Positions 35,084 through 48,775 of a DNA stretch of 64,000 nt are shown here, in pieces (the stretch's first letter is position 1; each line of letters opens with the position of its first letter). The DNA is from a virus. The stretch is taken from IMG/VR virus record IMGVR_UViG_3300037247_000655, positions 101,527 to 165,526 of that record, one strand, 5' to 3'. Both the position numbers and the translations under genes were made by a program. The notes under the pieces were generated by a model that saw nothing but the letters and a program-made list of their open reading frames with translations, was not told the DNA's origin and searched no databases.

Positions 35084-35325
35084 CTGAGATTCTCCTTTTC
35101 TTCTCCGTCGTGTTTGGTAGCTAATTTTTCCAAGGACATCGCTTGTCTTCCATTCATTATTAATTGGCTACCTAATGTAGTTGCTTGCTGTGCTGTTAGG
35201 TCTAGTGGTACAAATTCTGGTCCCCATGTGTCAACTTGTTCTGGTGACCGTTTGATGTATAGTGAAACATCAGGTCCATCACCCCATGTACATTGGGTGG
35301 ATATTTCTTCATTTTTTATTTTCAT
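35080..35325 (-). CDS. Hypothetical protein
   Basis: ATGA overlaps on both sides. Confidence 0.55.
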   Translation of the reverse strand: MKIKNEEISTQCTWGDGPDVSLYIKRSPEQVDTWGPEFVPLDLTAQQATTLGSQLIMNGRQAMSLEKLATKHDGEEKENLR

Positions 35326-36080
35326 TTTTTATTCGCCTTATTCCACCTAGCACGATCGAAAGCATTCATTGGCGGGGCGTCTGCGATAAATTCTTCGAAA
35401 AATTCGTCGCACCTACATCCGCCATCTCTACAACGATCATATCCATCGCAAGTACAATCTTCATACAACCAACCACAATCCGGACATGTGTCACAGACAC
35501 AATCAAAACTATGACACTCACTACATTGTTCGCCACAAATACATTCATCTAATGAATAACAGCATTCATCAAAAATATCTTCGTCTACACACTCTACGCA
35601 GGTTTCGTCTTCTTTGACCAGTTGTTCTTTCTTACAGGAATCACATGCTATTGTGTCTGGCAACTTGTAGTCTTCACCATCCTCTCTACCTAAGATGACT
35701 TTGACTGGTTTTAGTGCCACTATAAAACAGGGTACATCTCTGTCTGGGTCAAAGTCTCGCCTGTGTTGATTTAAAGCGCCCATTGCTCCACCATCTAAAC
35801 CTGTGCTTAGGTTTGTGAATGTTCTTCCTGCTAGTTCTATTTCACCATTAGCATCATATGCTAAAGAGTATGCAAGACCAGAATGGTAGCATCCACCCAA
35901 GACAATTCTCGTATCTTGGTCACGTGTATCATCGATAAAATCATCGATATCCTGATGGATTTTGTCGACAAAATCGACTTCGTAGTGTATATCCATTGAT
36001 GCAAATACTAGTTCTTTATTAAACAGCTCTTTGCATCTCCGAATAATATCATATGCTCGTTCGTCATTTTGGTTACACAT
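35322..36080 (-). CDS. Hypothetical protein with acidic Cys-rich repeat tail
   Basis: CDSC, CVEC, CSEC, CPDC and CxC units; TAATG coupling. Confidence 0.65.
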   Translation of the reverse strand: MCNQNDERAYDIIRRCKELFNKELVFASMDIHYEVDFVDKIHQDIDDFIDDTRDQDTRIVLGGCYHSGLAYSLAYDANGEIELAGRTFTNLSTGLDGGAMGALNQHRRDFDPDRDVPCFIVALKPVKVILGREDGEDYKLPDTIACDSCKKEQLVKEDETCVECVDEDIFDECCYSLDECICGEQCSECHSFDCVCDTCPDCGWLYEDCTCDGYDRCRDGGCRCDEFFEEFIADAPPMNAFDRARWNKANKK

Positions 36081-37090
36081 TAGATTATCACCTTTCTCGT
36101 AAGTTCTCCAATAAATTTGCTTCCACTACTTCCCTCTGTGTCAGCTTTCTCTCTAATAGCATCAAGTGTTTTAGATACACTTGTTTTTATGGCTTCCGAA
36201 TCAAAATCCTGGTTAGTTGTACCGGGACTTAAAAAAGTATCTTTGAATTCACTCAACATTTTTTCAATTTCATCGTCACCAAAGATATTCATTTGTTTGA
36301 AACGGTCTACGTAAGTTCGGAAGCACGAAAATGTTTTAGCAGTAAGCTTTTTACTGTCCTCTTCTTCTCCGAACGGTTCTCCGTTTATCCTGGCTGTCAT
36401 AAAATCACAGAATTGTATAGTCTCTTTTCTCATAGATGAGACATATTCTCCAACGAACACACCTACTTCAGCTTGCATCTGATTACGGATTTCTTGTTGT
36501 TTCTCTGACTGGACCTTCTGTTGAGCAATAATATCTTCTACGTTAGTCTCTTCTATGACATTGATACCCGCAATCTTGAAAGTGTACCAGTCAAACTGAA
36601 AATACTTGCGTAGTTCACTTGGGTTAGCTGGGTAATTACCTTTGATACACTTGTCCCAAAAATCAGGATGTGCTTTTCTTATTGTGGCAACCAAGTCATC
36701 AAAACGAGTAATGAAGCTGTCTACTCTCACAAAGAATTCTTCCTTTAGGTCTTTGATTTGCCCTTCTACTGTAGGTAGCATGTGCGATGGAATAAAATGG
36801 GCGCTGGCAATGCCAAACGGTACTGACCATTTCTCAAGAGCTTTCCTGGCACGTTTTTCTATTTGAGCTAATACTTGCAATTCTTCTTTGGGTACGATCA
36901 ACTTTCTTCCTAGGTTAACAATATCGTCTGGAAGCTTATCCGGGTCGTATCCAAGTTCTATTAGATCTGTTTTGGTTAGCATTTTTCTTCCAGACCACAT
37001 TTTTATCTTTAAGTTGACTAGGCACCCAACATCAAATAAACAGATTGTGTCTTTCTCTAAGATTGGTTCTTGTATTGTTGTCGTATTCAT
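36080..37090 (-). CDS. DUF3150-like protein
   Basis: LVNL.I..WSGRK, LG.KL, helical C-half; start revised to MNTT, which follows AAGGAG. Confidence 0.65.
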   Translation of the reverse strand: MNTTTIQEPILEKDTICLFDVGCLVNLKIKMWSGRKMLTKTDLIELGYDPDKLPDDIVNLGRKLIVPKEELQVLAQIEKRARKALEKWSVPFGIASAHFIPSHMLPTVEGQIKDLKEEFFVRVDSFITRFDDLVATIRKAHPDFWDKCIKGNYPANPSELRKYFQFDWYTFKIAGINVIEETNVEDIIAQQKVQSEKQQEIRNQMQAEVGVFVGEYVSSMRKETIQFCDFMTARINGEPFGEEEDSKKLTAKTFSCFRTYVDRFKQMNIFGDDEIEKMLSEFKDTFLSPGTTNQDFDSEAIKTSVSKTLDAIREKADTEGSSGSKFIGELTRKVII

Positions 37091-37149
37091 TTCTTTTTTC
37101 TCCTTTGTCTTATTGGTTTTGAATTCTTTAAGTTTTGGCACAATATTTC

Positions 37150-38715
37150 CTAATTCAAATCGACTTTTCTCGTATCAACATTATTGCTTTGTGGAGCTGT
37201 TCCCTGTGGGTTAGCGGGCTTTGCATGTTTTTTACACCATTTTCTAATAATTTCTATACGATCAGGTTCAGTTTTTGACAAAGGTATAACATTAGATGTA
37301 GCTTGTATTAAATGAGATGTCTTTAATTTGGTATTGTTACTAAATGCGATCTTAAGACCTAATTTGATAATTTGCTCTATGTCCGCGCCGGAGTATCCAT
37401 CTGTAATAATAGACAATTCTGATGTTACAAAATCATCTGGTTTTCTGTTTCTTTTAGATAAATGAATATTAAATATTTCTATGCGTTCTTTTTGAGACGG
37501 CAGATCTAGTGAATATATTTCGTCGAATCTTCCTTTTCTGGAAAATTCAGGGGGAAGTGATTCTATTTGATTCGCGGTAGCTACTACATAAATAGGGGAC
37601 TGTCTATCATTGAGCCATTTTATGAAAGTGCCGAACACCCGGCGAGATGAACCTCCATCACTATCTCCAGTGCCACCGAAGCTCTTCTCGACTTCGTCAA
37701 GTTGCAACACAAGTGGGCATACACTTTCCAACATCTTAATAGCTTCCCTCATATTGTGTTCTGACTCACCTACGTATTTATTCATTAAATTACCGACATC
37801 CATAGACACAAGAGGGAGGCCAAGTTCAGATGCAATAGCCAGAGACAATAGAGTTTTTCCACAACCCATTACCCCAACCAAAAGAATTCCTTTAGGAAAC
37901 TCAATACCGAAGTCTCTCGCCTCTTGGGTAAAACATGGTTTGTCTAACAATATGTGTTGTTTCAATGCATCATACCCTCCGACAATATCTAATCCTCCAT
38001 CGGGAGGTTCTGTGTATGTCAATAGACCTGACGCTTTTATTATGCTTGCCTTTTCTCTTGTTATGGTGTGTATTGCATCTGCGTTGAGATCTTTATGTTT
38101 ACACAAGGAGAGCGTGACACGATCAACCACTTGTTGGGAAGTCATTCCACGACAAGCATCTATTACCTCTGGGACTATGCTGGCGTCTATAACAAATTTT
38201 TCTCCATCAGCTTTCTTTACGTCACTACACGCGAATTGTATTCGTTCGTTGATTTGTTCTTCGTCAGGGAGATTGAAGTCGATCGTGGTTATGTCGTGCA
38301 GTAGTTGTTTTGGAATTTCCAAGTCTGGTCCTACAAATATAATAGTTTGGCCAACAGACGCCGTGATTTTTCTCAGTGTATCTAACCAACCTATCACTAT
38401 ATCACATCCAGGATAGGTACTATGATTCAGATACATCCCAAAGTCACGCAAGACGCAAATAGTATTATCAGGAAACTCAAGAATCGCTTGGATATGTTCA
38501 TGGACGGGGGCCATAGCAGGTGGTGCTTTGTCCACAGATTTGTTGTTACAATCTTTCCACCCTTCGGAAATTGACCACACATAGATTTGACGTTTAGTAT
38601 CTTCAGCGACATCGGAAATGTTACATATAGCACGATCTTTCTCAAATGTTTCGATATATAACAATGCGTGTCCAGAGCGAATATAGTCTGCAAGGTTACT
38701 GCGAAAATCATTCAT
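37150..38715 (-). CDS. Ycf46-like AAA+ ATPase (degenerate N module + active C module)
   Basis: GVMGCGKT, KYVGESE, LDEVEK, ATAN, RKGRFDE, GYSGADIEQ. Confidence 0.9.
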   Translation of the reverse strand: MNDFRSNLADYIRSGHALLYIETFEKDRAICNISDVAEDTKRQIYVWSISEGWKDCNNKSVDKAPPAMAPVHEHIQAILEFPDNTICVLRDFGMYLNHSTYPGCDIVIGWLDTLRKITASVGQTIIFVGPDLEIPKQLLHDITTIDFNLPDEEQINERIQFACSDVKKADGEKFVIDASIVPEVIDACRGMTSQQVVDRVTLSLCKHKDLNADAIHTITREKASIIKASGLLTYTEPPDGGLDIVGGYDALKQHILLDKPCFTQEARDFGIEFPKGILLVGVMGCGKTLLSLAIASELGLPLVSMDVGNLMNKYVGESEHNMREAIKMLESVCPLVLQLDEVEKSFGGTGDSDGGSSRRVFGTFIKWLNDRQSPIYVVATANQIESLPPEFSRKGRFDEIYSLDLPSQKERIEIFNIHLSKRNRKPDDFVTSELSIITDGYSGADIEQIIKLGLKIAFSNNTKLKTSHLIQATSNVIPLSKTEPDRIEIIRKWCKKHAKPANPQGTAPQSNNVDTRKVDLN

Positions 38716-41957: not shown

Positions 41958-42492
41958 ACTCTTCTTTTGTATACCCGGGGTTTATCGAGCTTACATACTT
42001 CTTGTATTCATATTTCCTTGGACATAAAAACTCAGAGTCATCAATAGATTCATAAGGTGATTTTAAAGCCCATGTAAAATCAGGAAACGGTGAACAACCA
42101 CACTTGCGAGAGGATGTGAAAAGAACTATCCGTCCAGTGCCTCCACAGTCTTTACAGTTTTTGTTTGGCATTACTCATTTCCTTATCTTTTTCCAAGCTC
42201 GCGATATTAGAGACCAGATAAACATAAATAGCCAACCGCCCGACAGCACAACTGCTGTACAAAGACACACCGCGATTGGGACGGTAATAAGGAGCACTAC
42301 TGGACCCCATAAAGGTGCGGCAATCCACCACCACGACCATCCAACTACCACTGTTTCTATTACACCAACCTTCAAAATGAACAATATTAAAAAGAATATA
42401 CCAAGGAAACCAATCCTACTTCTGTCAAAGGTGATCTTATTCTCATTATCAGACATACACTTGCTCCTCAGTAAATGACGTATCCACATCAC
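41923..42492 (-). other. Two small CDSs: Zn-finger protein 41923-42171 and membrane protein 42175-42492
   Basis: CKDCGGTG; LFILK..WSWWWIAAPLW. Confidence 0.55.
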
Positions 42493-43249
42493 CGTCCCTA
42501 GAAAGAGACATCTGAACTGTCTCCATACATAGTCTACAGTTCATTCCTGCTTTCAGTTGTTCGGATCTCCAATTGTATACATATTCCTGCGCTTCTTCCC
42601 ATGTTGTTTCATTGAAGTGTCGCCAAGGAAAATAACCAAATGGGCATTTACATATCATACCATTTTCTGTAATGGTCATGTTACACATGTCTTCGCATCT
42701 AGATACTGTGTTTTTATAGCCTCCAAGATTATTATCCCATGCCCTTCCTACCGGAACTATGTCGTTGACACTCGAATCACCTGGTTCTATTATGGGGATA
42801 CCCATATTATTATCTTTTAATAAAGATATAGCCTTGTGGCTGGGTTTGTCGTGCCAACTATCTTGAGATACAGCAACCTCTATTCTTGGGCACGATGCTG
42901 CTTGTATTTGTCTCATTGCGTCAAAGAATGTATCTGTACCTCTACCACCCCAAAATCCATTTGTTACCAACCTAATCCTACCCCTGCCTGTAGATAATGC
43001 AACAAGCATTTCTGGGTAGTTTTCTAAAATAGTAATTTCACCACCCATGATATTGAGGTTGATTTTTTTTGGTACCCAAGCGTTAAGTTCTTCACACGCA
43101 CTAGTAGACATCTGACCAATCATACTAGGGCCAGATCTAAAACAACAATGTCTACACTGTTGATCGCACTTGTTGGTGACCCTAACGACACAAGCCGTTG
43201 CAGCATTAGCCCTTTTCCATATTCCAGGCCATTTATCATGATTATCCAT
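42449..43249 (-). CDS. Radical SAM protein
   Basis: CDQQCRHC, MGGE, TNGFW, VGRA, C-terminal Cys. Confidence 0.85.
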   Translation of the reverse strand: MDNHDKWPGIWKRANAATACVVRVTNKCDQQCRHCCFRSGPSMIGQMSTSACEELNAWVPKKINLNIMGGEITILENYPEMLVALSTGRGRIRLVTNGFWGGRGTDTFFDAMRQIQAASCPRIEVAVSQDSWHDKPSHKAISLLKDNNMGIPIIEPGDSSVNDIVPVGRAWDNNLGGYKNTVSRCEDMCNMTITENGMICKCPFGYFPWRHFNETTWEEAQEYVYNWRSEQLKAGMNCRLCMETVQMSLSRDGDVDTSFTEEQVYV

Positions 43250-44375
43250 TACTGTTTACCTCATGAACCATAACGTCGTCTCCATCTCCGTCTATGACCA
43301 TGCCCCTTAATACCCCACCATCGCAGATACCACCATCTAGACAATAAGCTGAGTTGACAGGATGTGGATCTTCGCAAATAATGTGGCCACCGATTATATT
43401 ATATGTGTCGTCAAGTGTTTCCCACCACAACACACCATTATTGTCGTCATAAAAATCTGATCCACGTAGGTATCGTGAGTACAAACACGTTTCTACGTGC
43501 TGACTATAGATGGACTTGCCACCATCAATCCCTGCGTGTACAACATAAGTCGGTTTAATACCTATGTCACCAATACGAATCATTTGAGGCAAATACTGGA
43601 ACCACGCTGCCCATTCGGTCTTATCTAAATCAGCGCATTGTTCTATGGTGCAATCTAGACCATTGACTATCTTTACTGGGTTTCCAATCAGATGTCGACG
43701 ATATTTGTTGTCGTGATTACCTTCAACCGAGTAGGCACCAGGCGTATCTCTGAACCACTGTAGTGTTTCCCTTATCCTGGGGCCACGATCAACAAGGTCT
43801 CCTGTTGCTACCACGATGTCTCCTGCTCTATACTCACATTTAGCAAGAAGGGACATAAATTCGTTAAAATACCCATGGATATCCCCCACAACAATCACCC
43901 GCTCGCCTTGGCATATATTTCTAAGATCCAATAAATTGGCTGTACGTTTGCTGCATATATGAAGAATCTCGTCATATTCATCACAACTAGGTGGTTCAAA
44001 CTGATCGAAATACACATTAAGTATCTTATTGTGATCTGCATCTACAGAAATAGTTGGGTGGTTTTTTCTGGTTGCAAGACGCTCAAGACATGTACGTCTA
44101 TTTATGTCGAATAACACAAAAATCACACTATACCCTGATTGCCTAGCTGGTTTTGTATACCTATCTCTTTGAGCCCTGTTGAGATTCATTCTATCGACTA
44201 CTATGGATATCCTAGACTTAATAGATGTCTGAAATATACGGTGATGATGCTTCCCTTGTTCGTCTTGCGACAATCTCATTATGGGCCTGCCTGGTTGTCT
44301 CATGAGTGTGTTTGTTGCCCAATAAGTCTTGCCTGATCCCTGTGGTCCTATTAGTATATAGATTGTCTTACTCAT
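43242..44375 (-). CDS. Polynucleotide kinase-phosphatase-like (P-loop kinase + metallophosphatase, no ligase domain)
   Basis: GPQGSGKT, DRMN..R; GDIHG, GDLVDRG, GNHD, HAG. Confidence 0.85.
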   Translation of the reverse strand: MSKTIYILIGPQGSGKTYWATNTLMRQPGRPIMRLSQDEQGKHHHRIFQTSIKSRISIVVDRMNLNRAQRDRYTKPARQSGYSVIFVLFDINRRTCLERLATRKNHPTISVDADHNKILNVYFDQFEPPSCDEYDEILHICSKRTANLLDLRNICQGERVIVVGDIHGYFNEFMSLLAKCEYRAGDIVVATGDLVDRGPRIRETLQWFRDTPGAYSVEGNHDNKYRRHLIGNPVKIVNGLDCTIEQCADLDKTEWAAWFQYLPQMIRIGDIGIKPTYVVHAGIDGGKSIYSQHVETCLYSRYLRGSDFYDDNNGVLWWETLDDTYNIIGGHIICEDPHPVNSAYCLDGGICDGGVLRGMVIDGDGDDVMVHEVNSNG

Positions 44376-44915: not shown

Positions 44916-44988
44916 TGGGCCTGTCTGGATTTGAACCAGAAACCCCTCCGTTATGAGCGGAGCGCTCTGCCAATTGAGCTACAAGCCC
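44916..44988 (-). tRNA. tRNA with CAT anticodon, probably tRNA-Ile2 (lysidine); no encoded CCA
   Basis: GGGCTTG acceptor as in tRNA-Ile, CTCCG-CTCATAA-CGGAG anticodon arm, GGTTCAAATCC T-arm. Confidence 0.85.
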
Positions 44989-45219: not shown

Positions 45220-45891
45220 TTATTGTGCTCCCATCTCGTTTGTCAATAGATTAAGGTCTATCTCCTTATCTATGTCGCATCCACGCAACCATTGGGCGAA
45301 TTGCGCCACCATAAGTCCCGCTGCAATATTTGCGCAGTAGATGGTAGTTTTTGCTGTACACCTATCCTGAAATGCTTCTGCCGATGAGAACAGCGTTGTC
45401 TCATAGTGTTTCCTAGACGACTCATCATAGGCCGTGAACACTCTCATGTATTCAGCACTCATCCTCCCGTCTACGAACAGATCTGCCCTCCCCTTAACTC
45501 TGTTGAATATAGATGTTTTAGTTTCTATCCCGTCCGCACAGCAAAATAAAACACCCCCGGTAAACTGGCTAGACTTGAACTTACTACATGCAGTGGTTAC
45601 CTCAATTCCTGAATTGATAAGTCGACATATATCCGCCACGGCGTCTACCTTTGGTTTAGCTAGGTCTGTTTCATAAAAACCCTGTGCTGCTAAGTTCTCC
45701 ACAGCCACCGTGTCAAAATCTATCACACTCAACTTCGGGACACCAATTGCTGCTAACTGTAACGCTACTTGACGACCAATTGCCCCAACACCAACGACAG
45801 TAGCTCTTGTTTCTGCTAATTTGTCTGGTGGTACCAACTCCTGTTGACGTACGTCTCTTCCCGATATCATTGTGCTCATGGTAGTCTCCAT
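45220..45891 (-). CDS. ThiF/E1-like Ubl-activating enzyme
   Basis: RQQ, GVGAIG, DFDTV..ENL..Q, KV, DGRM, candidate catalytic Cys in DRCTAK. Confidence 0.9.
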   Translation of the reverse strand: METTMSTMISGRDVRQQELVPPDKLAETRATVVGVGAIGRQVALQLAAIGVPKLSVIDFDTVAVENLAAQGFYETDLAKPKVDAVADICRLINSGIEVTTACSKFKSSQFTGGVLFCCADGIETKTSIFNRVKGRADLFVDGRMSAEYMRVFTAYDESSRKHYETTLFSSAEAFQDRCTAKTTIYCANIAAGLMVAQFAQWLRGCDIDKEIDLNLLTNEMGAQ

Positions 45892-45909
45892 AATAGATTA
45901 GGAATTCCT

Positions 45910-46743
45910 TTAGTCATCCATAACTAACTCTCGCTCATTTGCGTACTTAGTAGCCCATGCTTTGATCTGCTCAATTAATGGTTCGTTCGGATTAGGTATT
46001 ACCTCTAATAAATCTTCGTCTTCTGTCCACCATTCATCTGCTGTTGGATTGTATACATACCAGACTGCTTCCTCTTCGTCCCAGTGTGATGCGTTACCAT
46101 CAGAGTTCCAGTAGCATTCAATGTCTTTACACAAAAGATCTTTCCACAGAGGATCTTCCATGTCTTGGGTAACACTGGGAGACATCGTCTTTGTTATTAT
46201 TTGAAATTCCTCAACGACTACCTTTGTGTTATATTCTTCCTCCCACGCCTTGGCGTTCGATGAGCCAAACGGGACACTCCAGTCTACCGTTACTTTAAGT
46301 AGTTTTTCTACTCCCGGAGCCGTATTCATCTTGAGACGGCAATATGTAGAACCGTCTTTAGCAATGATTAACATAATTGCCCAGTTAGGATGAGAGAATG
46401 CTTCCTTAAAGTTCTCCTCATCGTTCGCGCTAGGATGTGGCGAATTGCCCGGGTGGGAATGAATCAAAAGATTCATACATGCCCATGGTGGCACACCTAT
46501 GTCCATCATTCGTTCTGTGTGTTCCGCATTGTCCTCTGGGTCTAGTTCGAAATGGATAGGATTACATTTTTGTTTTACTAGAACGAAATCGGTGACTAGC
46601 AAAGGATCTTTTGTTGCAGTTATGCCGTATCCCGCTACTTCAGTGGGACCCAAGTCTCTCATACACAACAATTTTGAGTAGGCATATGCTGTAAATCTCA
46701 GTGTATCACCAAACGTTACCTTTGGTTTTGTGAATTCTTCCAT
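45910..46743 (-). CDS. JAB/MPN+ (JAMM) metallo-isopeptidase
   Basis: TEVAGYG (Glu) and HSHPGNSPHPSAND (HxH-x7-S-x2-D); acidic Trp-rich tail. Confidence 0.9.
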   Translation of the reverse strand: MEEFTKPKVTFGDTLRFTAYAYSKLLCMRDLGPTEVAGYGITATKDPLLVTDFVLVKQKCNPIHFELDPEDNAEHTERMMDIGVPPWACMNLLIHSHPGNSPHPSANDEENFKEAFSHPNWAIMLIIAKDGSTYCRLKMNTAPGVEKLLKVTVDWSVPFGSSNAKAWEEEYNTKVVVEEFQIITKTMSPSVTQDMEDPLWKDLLCKDIECYWNSDGNASHWDEEEAVWYVYNPTADEWWTEDEDLLEVIPNPNEPLIEQIKAWATKYANERELVMDD

Positions 46744-46758
46744 TTTTATCCCTTTCGG

Positions 46759-48090
46759 TTAATCATCAATCTTGGCTAAGATACAATTATGCTTCTTAGA
46801 ACAAGACGTGCAAGTAGATGTTCCGCAGTGTTCACATATGTTCCTATAACAAGAATCACACACTAGCTTGTTGCATTCTTCACAATCGTTTGTACATCCC
46901 TCACAAATACCCGCAGAGCATTGGGTGCATTTCTCAGTTATACAATCTTCACAGAAAACATCCATACAACCACCACATTCTGTCTTGCAACCGTCGCAGA
47001 TATAATCTCCACAATTGGTGCACGGAGTAGAACATGATTCGCAATGGTCTGTCTGACATGTTAGACATAGGCTCGTGCACGATGAGCATACTGTATTTTT
47101 ACATTCTGGACACGTTGTTAAACACCCCTCGCAATATGTCGAGTCACATTCCTCACATGTTTTAGAACAATCCCCACAGAACATCTCGTTACATCCTACG
47201 CAACCTGCTCCATTGAAGCAACTTTCACAGAACACGTCTCTACAGTTATTGCAAGTATATATCAGACTATCATCTAGAGAATCAGAGCAGACTATACAGG
47301 CGTGTTCACTATCTGGATCGTACCATTCATTAAGGTGGTAATACGGTGAGTCTCCGTTGTATGTTCTAAGAATTGACTCAACAATTGTAAGGTAATCCTC
47401 AAGTCTACCTTCACACAAAGCTGCGTTCATTATGTCGCCGCCGTCGCCACAGCAAAGTCTTTCGTTTTTTACGTGTGGATGGTAGCCACCACCGCCAGAC
47501 TCTATTTTGTTGACGGATTCTATCCAGAGGCTTTTGAACGGTTCGGTTATGTTAAGGTGAATCCAAAAGGAACCTAGTTCGACTTCTTCTTCAGACTCAC
47601 TTAATATAACATCTTTTACAAGAACAGACAGTATGTTATCACGGAATTTTACTTCTTCCCATGCGGCCACAATGGCATACATTTCTTCCATTGCTACTTT
47701 GTGGGACAAAGGTGTAATCTTATCATCTATCAGATATTGGAGTGTAGTAGAATTGTAACCAATCGCCGCGATAAGATCTCTTTCAACTTCTTTCGCTAAG
47801 ACCTTGATTATATTATCATGTGTGTGATGAGGGATGAGCCCAAAATGCCGTGGTTTCGTGGTGTCCCACGGGAATTTCTGGACTTTCAGGTCATTCGCAG
47901 ACACAAAAAGTCTAACCAACCTACTTAGTTCATTGGCTTTGTTAACAACTTTTCGAACGTTTCCAATTGTTTGTGGTACGAATTCCTGTCTACCTTTGAT
48001 TGCTTCTTGGATCATCCAGTTTCTATATTTCGAGGCTGCACGACGAACAAGTTTATCGTTCATCTTGCCTGGTTGTTTTTTCGCGATCAT
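46759..48090 (-). CDS. E2-like Ubl-conjugating protein with C-terminal array of 21 CxxC motifs
   Basis: YHPHVKNERLCCG matches the E2 HPN..LC motif; YN.DSPY; start revised to MIAK downstream of the terminator. Confidence 0.75.
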   Translation of the reverse strand: MIAKKQPGKMNDKLVRRAASKYRNWMIQEAIKGRQEFVPQTIGNVRKVVNKANELSRLVRLFVSANDLKVQKFPWDTTKPRHFGLIPHHTHDNIIKVLAKEVERDLIAAIGYNSTTLQYLIDDKITPLSHKVAMEEMYAIVAAWEEVKFRDNILSVLVKDVILSESEEEVELGSFWIHLNITEPFKSLWIESVNKIESGGGGYHPHVKNERLCCGDGGDIMNAALCEGRLEDYLTIVESILRTYNGDSPYYHLNEWYDPDSEHACIVCSDSLDDSLIYTCNNCRDVFCESCFNGAGCVGCNEMFCGDCSKTCEECDSTYCEGCLTTCPECKNTVCSSCTSLCLTCQTDHCESCSTPCTNCGDYICDGCKTECGGCMDVFCEDCITEKCTQCSAGICEGCTNDCEECNKLVCDSCYRNICEHCGTSTCTSCSKKHNCILAKIDD

Positions 48091-48112
48091 AGTAGATGTT
48101 CCTGTCAAATTC

Positions 48113-48145
48113 AAAAAGGGGTGGAGGAAAGATTTCCCCCACCCC
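48113..48145 (-). terminator. Intrinsic terminator inside the Ubl operon
   Basis: GGGGTGGGGGAAA-TC-TTTCCTCCACCCC-TTTTT. Confidence 0.8.
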
Positions 48146-48164
48146 ATTAGAGCCACAATCCAGA

Positions 48165-48410
48165 CTACTTCACCCCCAACAACTTACTCCGAACCTGTTT
48201 AGCTTCGTCTGCCGGAAGCTTGGCTATCAGGTCTACTACAGACTTTGGTAGCTTATTCTTCGCTTCCTTCCTATTCAACTTATATGCCAGAGCAACAACA
48301 TCGTCTGTTTGACTAGCTACCAAGTTTTCAGCCATAGCGATAGCCTCATCGCTCATCCTGGATCGAAGCGACTGAATCTGCTCTTCATTAGTTCCTGGCC
48401 CTCGTGCCAT
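48165..48410 (-). CDS. Small Lys-rich helical protein (81 aa) between Ubl and E2
   Basis: AAGGAG RBS before MARGPG (start revised). Confidence 0.7.
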   Translation of the reverse strand: MARGPGTNEEQIQSLRSRMSDEAIAMAENLVASQTDDVVALAYKLNRKEAKNKLPKSVVDLIAKLPADEAKQVRSKLLGVK

Positions 48411-48517
48411 CTTAATTCTCCTTTGCGGGGCTACACGCCCAATCCTCTGTTCCAATAGACGACTCCACATAGAGCCACCGACCCGTGAATCAAAACTATA
48501 CCATAGGTTCAACCAAC

Positions 48518-48775
48518 CTAATGCATAGCTTGAATAGTTACAGTGTCACTGCCATCAACCTTAAGGGGTGCCAATGATATGCGGTCTCCATCCTGAAGGA
48601 TATAGTCCATATGGGCCTCAACCGATGTCCCATTGGCCCTGACACGAATCTTAAACTCTTCTATGTCTCCCTCGAATGCAACCCTCAAGAAATCTTCCAG
48701 CCGAGTGTCGTCTGCAACATCTACCTGCTGAGGTAATCCTGCCCCGTCGTTGGTGATTAGTGTGACATTGATCAT
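48518..48775 (-). CDS. Ubiquitin-like (beta-grasp, MoaD/ThiS-type) protein with C-terminal extension
   Basis: IRV..NG..DYILQDGDRISLAPLKVDG followed by SDTVTIQAMH; AGGAG RBS. Confidence 0.85.
   Translation of the reverse strand: MINVTLITNDGAGLPQQVDVADDTRLEDFLRVAFEGDIEEFKIRVRANGTSVEAHMDYILQDGDRISLAPLKVDGSDTVTIQAMH

What the first reader, a model, noticed from the sequence alone, without database searches (positions are those of the whole stretch)
45220..48775. Complete ubiquitin-like conjugation operon (Ubl-X-E2-JAB-E1) in a phage-like genome
Seen: five co-oriented genes. These are a beta-grasp Ubl, an 81-aa helical protein, an E2-like protein (HPHV..LC), a JAMM peptidase (E..HxH..S..D) and a ThiF/E1 with a candidate catalytic Cys. 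No Moco, thiamine or thiolation genes lie nearby, which argues against a sulfur-carrier role. Known: the order Ubl-E2-JAB-E1 parallels bacterial Bil-type antiphage systems, which conjugate a Ubl to virion proteins. Inference: here the machinery sits on the viral side and may tag host defence proteins, competing phages or the phage's own proteins. That would be a virus-encoded bacterial ubiquitination pathway.
Basis: partly seen in the sequence, partly recalled or inferred. Interest (0 to 1): 0.92.

Follow-up and report, generated by a model that had tools for sequence, protein, structure and literature searches.

The report
Virus-encoded ubiquitin-like protein tagging cassette
A complete 165-kb phage genome carries its own kit for attaching a small ubiquitin-like tag to proteins (tag, activating enzyme, carrier enzyme fused to a long zinc-finger array, trimming protease); the kit is conserved across a whole clade of large viruses and has relatives on mobile elements of Planctomycetota, yet no published family I could search describes it.

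Summary
Five co-oriented minus-strand genes lie at 45220-48775 in a complete virus genome with direct terminal repeats. They are a ThiS/MoaD-like Ubl, an 81-aa protein X, an E2-like protein, a JAMM/JAB peptidase and a 223-aa ThiF-type E1.

- **E2:** it matches no Pfam, NCBIfam, PADLOC or PHROG model. A pLDDT-91.5 model of its core matches almost only UBC/UEV/RWD folds. The family keeps an invariant HPH-x6-LC motif, like the HPN...C of classical E2s. A tail of 21 CxxC motifs follows.
- **Ubl:** it ends in a conserved Gly followed by a variable tail. Relatives also encode it fused in frame to X, or as a head-to-tail di-Ubl, so the JAB probably matures it.
- **Conservation:** the order Ubl-E2-JAB-E1 is kept in every related viral contig that could be assessed. 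The viral E1s group apart from a very large set of cassettes on integrated mobile elements of Planctomycetota.
- **Sulfur transfer:** no sulfur-transfer partner was found in the genome.

It works like Bil but fails Bil membership: the E1 has one domain, the E2 motif differs and no profile matches. The targets, and whether it serves attack or defence, are unknown. Conjugation is inferred, not shown.

This scan has met the same cassette family before on other DNA.

The parts
48518..48775 (-). Pro-Ubl, 85 aa. A ThiS/MoaD-like beta-grasp protein with conserved ...K-V-D-G75 (Gly codon 48553..48551), followed by a 10-residue non-conserved tail.
   Evidence: ThiS E 0.0082 and MoaD_arch E 0.0022, both below threshold. 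Eight of 28 homologues hit ThiS at E<=0.01. One source names a homologue 'MoaD/ThiS family'. The alignment shows K72 and G75 kept in at least 90% of sequences, followed by tails of 1-10 residues and one of 67. An AGGAG box lies 8 nt before the ATG.
48165..48410 (-). X, 81 aa, Lys-rich, of no known family. It is an accessory partner of the Ubl, present in 4 of about 10 distinct viral relatives. In two of them it is fused in frame directly after the Ubl glycine.
   Evidence: An AGGAG box precedes ATG 48410. tblastn finds X in L005, L009, L010 and L015. In-frame Ubl-X fusions occur in L005 (KVGG-AAG-RGPGT...) and L015 (KIEG-DAG-KGPGT...). There is no significant Pfam, PHROG or NCBIfam hit.
48118..48145 (-). 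Terminator-like hairpin between X and the E2 gene: 12 pairs (8 G-C), then TTTTT. A promoter-like site follows at 48114..48086.
   Evidence: (consensus scan only) and the sequence. It may set a higher dose of Ubl and X than of the enzymes; that is an inference.
47299..48063 (-). N-terminal part of the E2-like protein. Residues 1-112 form a helical extension found in the viral type. Residues about 113-250 form a UBC-fold core with H195-P196-H197 (first codon 47481..47479) and the candidate catalytic C204 (47454..47452).
   Evidence: AF2 with a 149-sequence alignment gave pLDDT 91.5 and the topology a1-b1-b4-loop-a2-a3. In VIA-align against 48,161 chains, nearly all of the top 50 rows are E2, UEV, RWD or RWD-like folds. 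The best is UBE2S at Z 7.3, rmsd 3.6, 118 residues aligned. Foldseek's top hits are UbcH7 at probability 0.95, but with E>0.01. Core H86, C95, G97 and Y126 are invariant. No Pfam, PADLOC, PHROG, NCBIfam or PDB sequence match was found.
46759..47298 (-). Cys-rich tail of the same protein: 179 aa, 43 Cys, 21 CxxC motifs spaced alternately 7 and 8 residues apart. This is enough for about 10 Zn(Cys)4 sites. It is a candidate built-in substrate-binding or E3-like module.
   Evidence: Counts are. The tail is present in nearly all of the 154 family representatives examined. Only weak, non-significant matches to PHD and RING fingers were found (E 0.05-0.5). Zn binding is inferred.
45910..46743 (-). 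JAMM/JAB metallopeptidase, 277 aa. The JAB domain covers about residues 1-190, followed by a C-terminal extension found in the viral type. It is the candidate pro-Ubl maturase and deconjugase.
   Evidence: Prok-JAB E 4.1e-7, above the cut-off. There are weak hits to the desampylase and Cap3 models. E35, H95, H97, S105 and D108 (the E...HxH-x7-S-x2-D motif) are kept in at least 95% of 100 homologues.
45220..45891 (-). Minimal E1, 223 aa: a single ThiF/MoeB-type adenylation domain, probably a homodimer. It has invariant ATP-site residues and an invariant C178 (codon 45360..45358).
   Evidence: ThiF E 8.9e-23. The closest solved relatives by profile are PaaA, MoeB, MccB, ThiF, UBA7, BubCD and UBA5. 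G34, G36, G39, R40, Q41, D58, N66, Q70, K81, D120 and C178 are kept in 94-95 of 95 sequences. It has no rhodanese domain or CxxC zinc site.

Best explanation
This is a virus-encoded cascade that conjugates a ubiquitin-like protein to other proteins.

Proposed steps, all inferred from homology, motifs and comparative anatomy:
1. The pro-Ubl is made with a 10-residue tail. In relatives it is made fused to protein X or as a di-Ubl. The JAMM peptidase cuts after Gly75.
2. The small, probably dimeric ThiF-type E1 adenylates Gly75. It may hold the Ubl on its invariant Cys178.
3. The Ubl passes to Cys204 of a new kind of E2. This E2 has a UBC fold with a classical HPx...Cys active site.
4. The E2's own appendages choose the target and stand in for an E3. 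These are an N-terminal helical domain and a tail of 21 CxxC motifs that probably binds zinc. The Ubl is then attached to the target.
5. The JAB may also reverse the tagging.

The cassette is a long-held core trait of this virus clade. It therefore most likely serves the virus's own infection programme, such as host takeover, counter-defence or control of viral proteins, rather than being recent defence cargo. The targets are unknown.
For: - **True virus:** the genome is complete, with terminal repeats.
- **E1 and JAB:** both pass the curated Pfam thresholds. Their catalytic residues are near-invariant in 95 and 100 homologues.
- **E2 core:** the model is confident (pLDDT 91.5). Its best fold matches among 48,161 chains are almost all UBC, UEV or RWD folds. 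An invariant His lies nine residues before an invariant Cys.
- **Ubl:** it has ThiS/MoaD-like signals. A conserved Gly is followed by variable tails. Ubl-X fusions and di-Ubl forms also occur. These are the three precursor forms known for ubiquitin, and all call for a processing peptidase.
- **Synteny:** the order Ubl-(X)-E2-JAB-E1 is kept in all 10 distinct IMG/VR relatives found with the E2. It is also kept in 9 of 9 assessable relatives found independently with a neighbouring AAA+ gene, despite only 25-51% E2 identity.
- **Same cassette elsewhere:** 63 of 85 cellular loci hold the complete cassette in the same order; most of the others are cut by contig ends.
- **Not a recent capture:** in a quick tree the viral E1s form one group (SH-aLRT 93) outside the Planctomycetota group (96).
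- **No sulfur partners:** none was found in the genome.
Against: - No biochemical evidence exists for any member of this family.
- The fold matches for the E2 are middling (Z 7.3, Foldseek E>0.01). A UBC fold also occurs in non-catalytic UEV and RWD proteins.
- The beta-grasp fold of the Ubl rests on sub-threshold profile hits; it was not modelled.
- The E1's nearest solved relatives include MoeB and ThiF (sulfur carriers) and PaaA and MccB (peptide modification).
- Mobile elements often carry defence systems, so 'for the virus's own programme' is not separated from 'exclusion of rival phages'.
- The E1 tree is a quick, unfinished search rooted on very long outgroup branches.
Confidence: 0.62

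Rival explanations
1. The chemistry is the same, but the cassette is defence cargo. Like Bil, it would tag proteins of competing phages or other invaders, giving superinfection exclusion. The virus and the Planctomycetota mobile elements would carry it to protect the cell they occupy.
For: Every characterised bacterial Ubl cascade (Bil, type II CBASS Cap2/Cap3, probably Bub) is antiviral. The relatives sit on integrated elements beside recombinases, a MORC-like ATPase, and HerA-like and STAND/Cdc6-like ATPases, which is typical conflict-island content. The E2 and its tail evolve much faster than the E1 and Ubl (32-46% against 60-70% identity), as expected for a recognition module in an arms race.
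Against: The cassette sits at a fixed syntenic position in every assessable member of a deep clade of 110-180-kb viruses, not in a variable island. The viral E1s do not nest inside the cellular ones. No known defence-system profile matches the Ubl or E2. None of this excludes the rival.
Confidence: 0.2
2. This is a sulfur-carrier or small-molecule pathway. The E1 would adenylate the Ubl, or a peptide, to form a thiocarboxylate or a modified peptide, for example for tRNA, DNA or cofactor thiolation or a RiPP-like product. The E2-like protein would be a scaffold.
For: The Ubl's only profile hits are ThiS and MoaD. The E1's closest solved relatives are PaaA, MoeB, MccB and ThiF. Radical-SAM genes, tRNA genes and a Pnkp-like gene lie nearby.
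Against: No cysteine desulfurase, PP-loop thiolase or rhodanese was found in the 165-kb genome, although the host could supply them. The strict four-gene unit always includes a UBC-fold protein with an invariant HPH...C motif and a JAB, which sulfur pathways do not need. Ubl fusions and di-Ubl forms fit a protein modifier.
Confidence: 0.07
3. Conjugation happens without a catalytic E2. The E1 alone would ligate the Ubl, as in archaeal SAMP or Thermus TtuB. The UBC-fold protein would then be a UEV/RWD-like adaptor that only binds the Ubl or the targets through its zinc array.
For: The fold search gives UEV and RWD domains nearly the same scores as true E2s. Bub shows that bacterial E2-like proteins can depart from thioester chemistry.
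Against: A Cys is invariant in 149 family members, nine residues after an invariant His of an HPx motif. This is the spacing of active E2s and is unexpected in a non-catalytic adaptor.
Confidence: 0.08

Closest known systems
Bil systems (BilABCD, types I and II; Iyer 2006 class 6d and CEHH/6C): bacterial anti-phage Ubl conjugation
   Same: Both have four separate genes in the same order: Ubl, E2, JAB, E1. Both lack an E3 gene, so the E2 is thought to pick the targets. In both, the Ubl has a conserved Gly followed by up to about nine non-conserved residues, as seen here. In both, a JAB peptidase is the likely maturase and deconjugase.
   Different: The Bil E1 is IAD-AAD-CYS, whereas here it is one 223-aa adenylation domain. 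The Bil E2 lacks the classical His and has a His after the Cys. Here the HPx His comes before the Cys, and a 21xCxxC tail and an N-terminal helical domain are added. No Bil profile matches the Ubl or E2. The carriers are viruses and mobile elements, not defence islands of Proteobacteria.
Eukaryotic and Caldiarchaeum-type E1-E2-(RING E3)-Rpn11 ubiquitin systems
   Same: The E2 core has a UBC fold with an HPx motif nine residues before the Cys, as in classical E2s. The best fold matches are UBE2S, UBE2F and Ubc13. The Ubl precursor forms (tail, head-to-tail repeat, fusion to another protein) mirror those of ubiquitin genes.
   Different: Pfam gives no UQ_con or ubiquitin match. The Ubl is ThiS/MoaD-like and ends in a single Gly. 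The E1 is minimal, with no UFD or separate Cys domain. There is no separate RING gene; a periodic CxxC array is fused to the E2 instead.
Bub systems (types I and II; 6E/DUF6527)
   Same: The E1 is homodimeric and ThiF-like; BubCD is among the closer solved relatives of this E1. The operon's peptidase matures a Ubl fusion. BubB appears among the fold matches of the E2 core (Z 5.2).
   Different: Bub works through Ser/oxyester intermediates and lacks catalytic cysteines. It uses fused BubAB and BubCD proteins and a DUF6527 serine protease. Here Cys is invariant in both E1 and E2, the genes are separate, and there is no DUF6527.
Type II CBASS Cap2/Cap3
   Same: Both use E1/E2/JAB chemistry. The E1 hits the PADLOC E1-E2 (Cap2-like) models at 1e-12, and the JAB hits the JAB/Cap3 models weakly.
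   Different: Cap2 is an E2-E1 fusion that conjugates a CD-NTase, and it has no Ubl gene. No CD-NTase or effector is present here.
ThiS-ThiF, MoaD-MoeB and CysO-MoeZ-Mec sulfur-carrier pairs
   Same: Both pair a beta-grasp protein that ends in Gly with a small ThiF-type adenylating enzyme. Some of these pathways also include a JAB.
   Different: Here there is no rhodanese, desulfurase or thiolase, and no biosynthetic genes. A UBC-fold protein with a catalytic-type Cys is an obligate part of the unit.

Membership tests
Bil (BilABCD) type I/II | Four genes: Ubl, E2, JAB peptidase and E1, with no E3 | tested here: met
   All four are present in the order Ubl-(X)-E2-JAB-E1.
Bil (BilABCD) type I/II | [quoted passage not shown] | tested here: not met
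   The E1 is 223 aa. A single ThiF match covers residues 23-206, and family members are 216-223 aa.
Bil (BilABCD) type I/II | E2 of the BilB type: conserved Cys with a His after it, lacking the classical HPN His | tested here: not met
   The invariant His lies nine residues before the invariant Cys (HPH-x6-LC). No invariant His follows the Cys among the invariant columns.
Bil (BilABCD) type I/II | Sequence membership by defence-system or curated profiles | tested here: not met
   PADLOC gives no hit for the Ubl or E2, and only generic JAB and E1-E2 hits for the others. NCBIfam gives nothing for the Ubl or E2 beyond a sub-threshold MoaD hit. The PDB profile search, which includes solved Bil, Cap2 and Bub chains, gives no hit for the E2.
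Bil (BilABCD) type I/II | Ubl with a conserved Gly followed by a short non-conserved tail | tested here: met
   G75 is kept in at least 90% of sequences and is followed by 1-10 variable residues. The Planctomycetota Ubls end KIEG-A-x(0-25).
UBC/E2 superfamily (fold level) | a1-b1-b4 meander, then a loop carrying HPx, then the catalytic Cys, then a2-a3 | tested here: met
   The secondary-structure order of the model fits. Nearly all of the top 50 VIA-align rows are E2, UEV or RWD-type folds, with Z up to 7.3. The HPH...C motif is invariant or nearly so. I could not check whether the Cys superposes on the catalytic Cys, because the tools return no residue-level structural alignment.
UBC/E2 superfamily (Pfam UQ_con) | Sequence match to the UQ_con profile | tested here: not met
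   No UQ_con or Prok-E2 hit at E<=1, and none in 10 distant family members.
E1-like (ThiF/MoeB/UBA) superfamily | Adenylation domain with GxGxxG, Arg/Gln, Asp and Lys ATP-site residues | tested here: met
   ThiF 8.9e-23. The ATP-site residues are kept in 94-95 of 95 sequences. PDB relatives are listed.
JAMM/MPN+ peptidases | The metal-site motif E...HxH-x7-S-x2-D | tested here: met
   Prok-JAB matches above the cut-off. E35, H95, H97, S105 and D108 are kept in at least 95% of 100 sequences.
ThiS/MoaD/ubiquitin beta-grasp modifiers | Beta-grasp fold with a C-terminal Gly | tested here: inconclusive
   Only sub-threshold ThiS and MoaD hits were found, with 8 of 28 homologues at E<=0.01. The profile finds nothing in the PDB. 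The conserved Gly is present.
PRTRC cassette (ParB-related/ThiF-related; NCBIfam TIGR03734-03742) | Matches to the PRTRC ThiF and protein A-F models | tested here: not met
   The E1 hits PRTRC_ThiF only at 22.3 bits against a cut-off of 144.75. There are no PRTRC hits for the Ubl, X, E2 or JAB.
Bub (6E/DUF6527) | Ubl-E2 and JAB-E1 fusions (type I) or an E2-E1 fusion (type II), a DUF6527 protease, and Ser in place of the catalytic Cys | tested here: not met
   The genes are separate. No DUF6527 hit was found. Cys is invariant in both E1 and E2.

The most novel reading that the evidence does not exclude
The cassette may be half of a viral 'tag and unfold' pathway. On this reading, the Ubl marks host or viral proteins for a virus-encoded AAA+ unfoldase of the PAN/Cdc48/FtsH class (37150-38715), which works with its DUF3150 partner (36080-37141).

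The AAA+ pair lies 2-7 kb downstream of the cassette in 9 of 9 assessable viral relatives. AAA+ homologues lie within 5 kb of the cassette in about 10 of 85 Planctomycetota loci, spread over several E1 clades.

If true, this would be a phage and mobile-element analogue of the ubiquitin-Cdc48/proteasome axis. Protein X, sometimes made as a Ubl fusion, would be a co-delivered adaptor or first substrate.
Probability: 0.12. Interest if true: 0.9.

Novelty: new variant of a known kind. Interest (0 to 1): 0.78.

Why it matters
So far, prokaryotic ubiquitin-like conjugation has been shown only as a host weapon against phages (Bil, CBASS Cap2, probably Bub). Here a complete cascade is a conserved core trait of a clade of large viruses, and of mobile elements in Planctomycetota. 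It is built around an E2 family that no current catalogue recognises.

This E2 keeps the classical HPx...Cys signature and is fused to a long zinc array that may replace an E3. If the cascade is active, viruses of prokaryotes use ubiquitin-style tagging themselves, as eukaryotic viruses do.

The Ubl precursors (tail, di-Ubl, fusion protein) would also show that ubiquitin-like gene layouts arose outside eukaryotes. A possibly related E2-like/JAB/E1 trio in cultivable crAss-like phages offers a route to experiments.

Tried and rejected
- **Complex prediction:** two E1 copies, mature Ubl and the E2 core, with the E2 as the scored partner. Result: no verdict (score 0.00). This is not evidence either way.
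- **Sequence links for the E2:** Pfam, PADLOC, PHROGs and NCBIfam on the window protein, Pfam on 10 distant members, and a PDB profile search all gave nothing. tblastn against 50,697 GenBank phages gave no match, and blastn of the locus gave none.
- **First E2 model:** with 8 sequences it was poor (pLDDT 68) and gave only weak UEV/UBC hits. The deep-alignment model replaced it.
- **Locus searches that failed:** The search for related loci with the deep E2 alignments failed for lack of a conserved 7-10-column stretch. A single Planctomycetota E2 found nothing in the genome collection.
- **Ubl profile against the PDB:** nothing found.
- **Cys-rich tail against the PDB:** only non-significant PHD, RING and FYVE-like matches. 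I do not call it a RING.
- **Asgard-archaeal host, rejected.** The closest 'cellular' E1 (L038) lies in a Heimdallarchaeota MAG. That 'chromosome' is stitched together with 100-N linkers, and it lacks a homologue of the phage's DnaE half. L038 is a binned viral fragment.
- **Word-indexed search with the X part of the L005 Ubl-X fusion:** it found only the fusion itself and one close copy.
- **Literature:** searches found no description of a phage-encoded complete Ubl cascade or of this E2 family. The library is incomplete, so this is not proof of absence.

Full report
**Where the window lies.** The window is bases 101527-165526 of a 165,526-bp IMG/VR virus record. The record has direct terminal repeats and CheckV rates it 100% complete. 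Nearly all genes are on the minus strand. They include phage-type replication and nucleotide genes: a DnaE-type polymerase part, a DnaB-like helicase, a primase, a UvsX-like recombinase and a ribonucleotide reductase. There are three tRNA genes.

**The five genes.**

| Gene | Coordinates (minus strand) | Length |
|---|---|---|
| Ubl | 48775..48518 | 85 aa |
| X | 48410..48165 | 81 aa |
| E2-like | 48063..46759 | 434 aa |
| JAB | 46743..45910 | 277 aa |
| E1 | 45891..45220 | 223 aa |

- The start of X follows an AGGAG box.
- The E2 start is set by homologues, which begin MNxKLVRRAA.
- A strong hairpin followed by a T-run (48145..48118) and a promoter-like site separate Ubl and X from the three enzyme genes. 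These are consensus matches only.

**E1 and JAB are secure.**
- E1 matches ThiF at 8.9e-23 and JAB matches Prok-JAB at 4.1e-7, both above the curated cut-offs.
- Across 95 E1 homologues, viral and cellular, the ATP-site residues and Cys178 are kept in 94-95 sequences.
- Across 100 JAB homologues the JAMM motif E35...H95-x-H97-x7-S105-x2-D108 is at least 95% conserved.
- The E1 is a single adenylation domain. Its nearest solved relatives by profile are PaaA, MoeB, MccB, ThiF, UBA7, BubCD and UBA5.

**The E2 was the open question.** It matches nothing in Pfam, PADLOC, PHROGs, NCBIfam or PDB sequences.
- A word-indexed search found only 8 near relatives among 5.8 billion proteins.
- A full HMM search found 1,937 cluster representatives at E<=0.001. 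Nearly all of the 154 examined carry a Cys-rich tail.
- In a 149-sequence alignment of the core, H86, C95, G97 and Y126 are invariant. The consensus is THPHV-x4-LCEGDG...GRLxDFF...TYN.
- In the window protein these residues are H195-P196-H197 and C204. The spacing is that of the HPN...Cys site of classical E2s.
- AlphaFold2 on this alignment gave pLDDT 91.5 and the order a1, b1-b4, loop, a2, a3.
- VIA-align against 48,161 representative chains put E2, UEV, RWD or RWD-like domains in nearly all of the top 50 rows. The best were UBE2S (Z 7.3, rmsd 3.6, 118 aligned), UBE2F (7.0) and Ubc13 (6.9); BubB scored 5.2.
- Foldseek ranked UbcH7 first at probability 0.95, but with E>0.01.
- The Z values are middling, so I rest the claim on three things together: the near-uniformity of the fold hits, the motif and the operon context.
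- The C-terminal 179 residues hold 43 Cys in 21 CxxC motifs spaced alternately 7 and 8 residues apart. Similarity to PHD and RING fingers is not significant.

**The Ubl.**
- Profile support for a ThiS/MoaD fold is sub-threshold: Pfam E 0.0082, NCBIfam MoaD E 0.0022, and 8 of 28 homologues at E<=0.01.
- The comparative anatomy is more telling. Homologues are 58-86% identical. K72 and G75 are kept in at least 90% of them, followed by 1-10 unrelated residues, or 67 in one case.
- In two related viruses (L005, L015) the Ubl is fused in frame to X directly after the Gly.
- In Planctomycetota the Ubl ends KIEG-A-x(0-25), and two loci encode head-to-tail di-Ubls.
- All of these forms need a peptidase to expose the Gly. 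This matches what is published for type II BilA and for Bub.

**Conservation in viruses.**
- The E2 alignment found 10 distinct IMG/VR contigs of 65-181 kb. All carry Ubl-(X)-E2-JAB-E1 in this order.
- Identities to the window proteins are: E1 60-70%, Ubl 47-71%, JAB 43-54%, E2 core 32-46%.
- As an independent probe I used the neighbouring AAA+ gene. It found 10 viral loci. Nine had enough flank to judge, and all nine have the cassette 2-7 kb upstream.
- The cassette is thus a core, syntenic trait of this virus clade.

**The wider family.**
- Distant E2 homologues sit in the same four-gene unit.
- In a sample of 301 genomes of one phylum, 10 carried it, with up to 6 matches per genome and on megabase-size contigs.
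- A scan with the E1 alignment found at least 502 loci. The best 80 are almost all Planctomycetota. Of 85 cellular loci examined, 63 hold the complete cassette, and most of the rest are cut by contig ends.
- The flanks hold tyrosine and serine recombinases, DUF2958, VRR-NUC, a MORC-like HATPase, and HerA-like and Cdc6/STAND-like ATPases.
- The E1 tree does not follow taxonomy. These copies therefore ride on integrated mobile elements.
- In the quick tree, the 12 viral E1s form one group (SH-aLRT 93) beside a group of 82 rows that are nearly all Planctomycetota (96). This gives no sign of recent capture. The tree search was unfinished and the outgroup branches are very long.

**Against a sulfur-carrier role.** No Aminotran_5, PP-loop ATP_bind_3 or rhodanese match exists anywhere in the genome, while the control genomes matched. 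The host could still supply these functions.

**Comparison with known systems.**
- The gene order, the missing E3 and the Gly-plus-tail Ubl parallel Bil. Three defining Bil features fail, however: the E1 architecture, the E2 motif type and profile membership.
- Bub, Cap2/Cap3 and the PRTRC cassette also fail membership tests.
- None of the operon classes of Iyer et al. 2006 fits.
- The Ubl systems tied to FtsH-type ATPases in Kaur et al. 2020 use a Ubl-E2 fusion and a separate RING.
- I found no paper describing this family or a complete phage-encoded cascade.
- Earlier notes of this scan report the same cassette on other viral genomes and on Planctomycetota elements. My searches reached the same picture independently.

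**What stays open.** These points are unresolved: the targets, whether the cassette serves attack or defence, the role of X, the function of the zinc array, and the host. The complex prediction gave no verdict.

**Verdict.** Confidence in a working conjugation cascade is about 0.6. It is a new variant of a known kind, and interest is high.

Noticed in passing
L122:2348-5732 (phage cr128_1) and L006 (crAss001 gp78-gp76): crAss-like phages carry a similar trio in the same order: a 435-aa protein whose predicted structure matches the E2-core model in BFVD (probability 0.95; other crAss-like and podovirus proteins reach E 6e-5), then a Prok-JAB protein (E 6e-5), then a ThiF E1 with an N-terminal extension of about 100 aa. 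They are annotated only as hypothetical, metalloprotease and 'thiamine biosynthesis' proteins. No Ubl gene was identified.
   Followed up: partly
window 35322-38715 (-): An AAA+ ATPase of the PAN/Cdc48/FtsH class (521 aa) is followed by a DUF3150 protein (353 aa) and a 252-aa protein. This block lies downstream of the Ubl cassette in 9 of 9 assessable viral relatives. AAA+ homologues lie within 5 kb of the cassette in about 10 of 85 Planctomycetota loci.
   Followed up: partly
L038 and L118-L121 (Heimdallarchaeota MAG CP070695.1): A stretch of more than 16 kb is syntenic with the window: isochorismatase, the cassette, radical SAM, AAA+ and DUF3150. It sits in a MAG 'chromosome' stitched together with 100-N linkers, and that record has no homologue of the phage's DnaE half. 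It is a binned viral fragment and gives no evidence for an archaeal host.
   Followed up: yes
L042:2287-2772 and L045:5217-5693: These are head-to-tail di-Ubl genes in Planctomycetota cassettes, with two beta-grasp units each ending in KIEGA or KIDGA. The layout resembles polyubiquitin precursors.
   Followed up: partly
window 43242-44375 (-) and 42449-43249 (-); tRNA-Met 44916-44988: Just downstream of the E1 lie a tRNA-Met gene, a Pnkp-like kinase/phosphatase (AAA_33 + Metallophos) and a radical-SAM protein. A relative (L002) has the Pnkp-like domains joined to an RNA-ligase domain. This looks like a tRNA-repair module.
   Followed up: no
L002:7317-8039 (-); L002:9077-9376 and L003:8278-8586: Insertions occur within the cassette in relatives: an opposite-strand gene for a Cys-rich, HNH-like protein between E2 and JAB, and an extra CxxC protein of about 100 aa between JAB and E1. 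Both are absent from the window.
   Followed up: no
L056 (Thermoplasmata MAG): This locus has three E2-like ORFs around one Ubl-JAB-E1 set. Its E1 branches near the base of the family in the quick tree.
   Followed up: no
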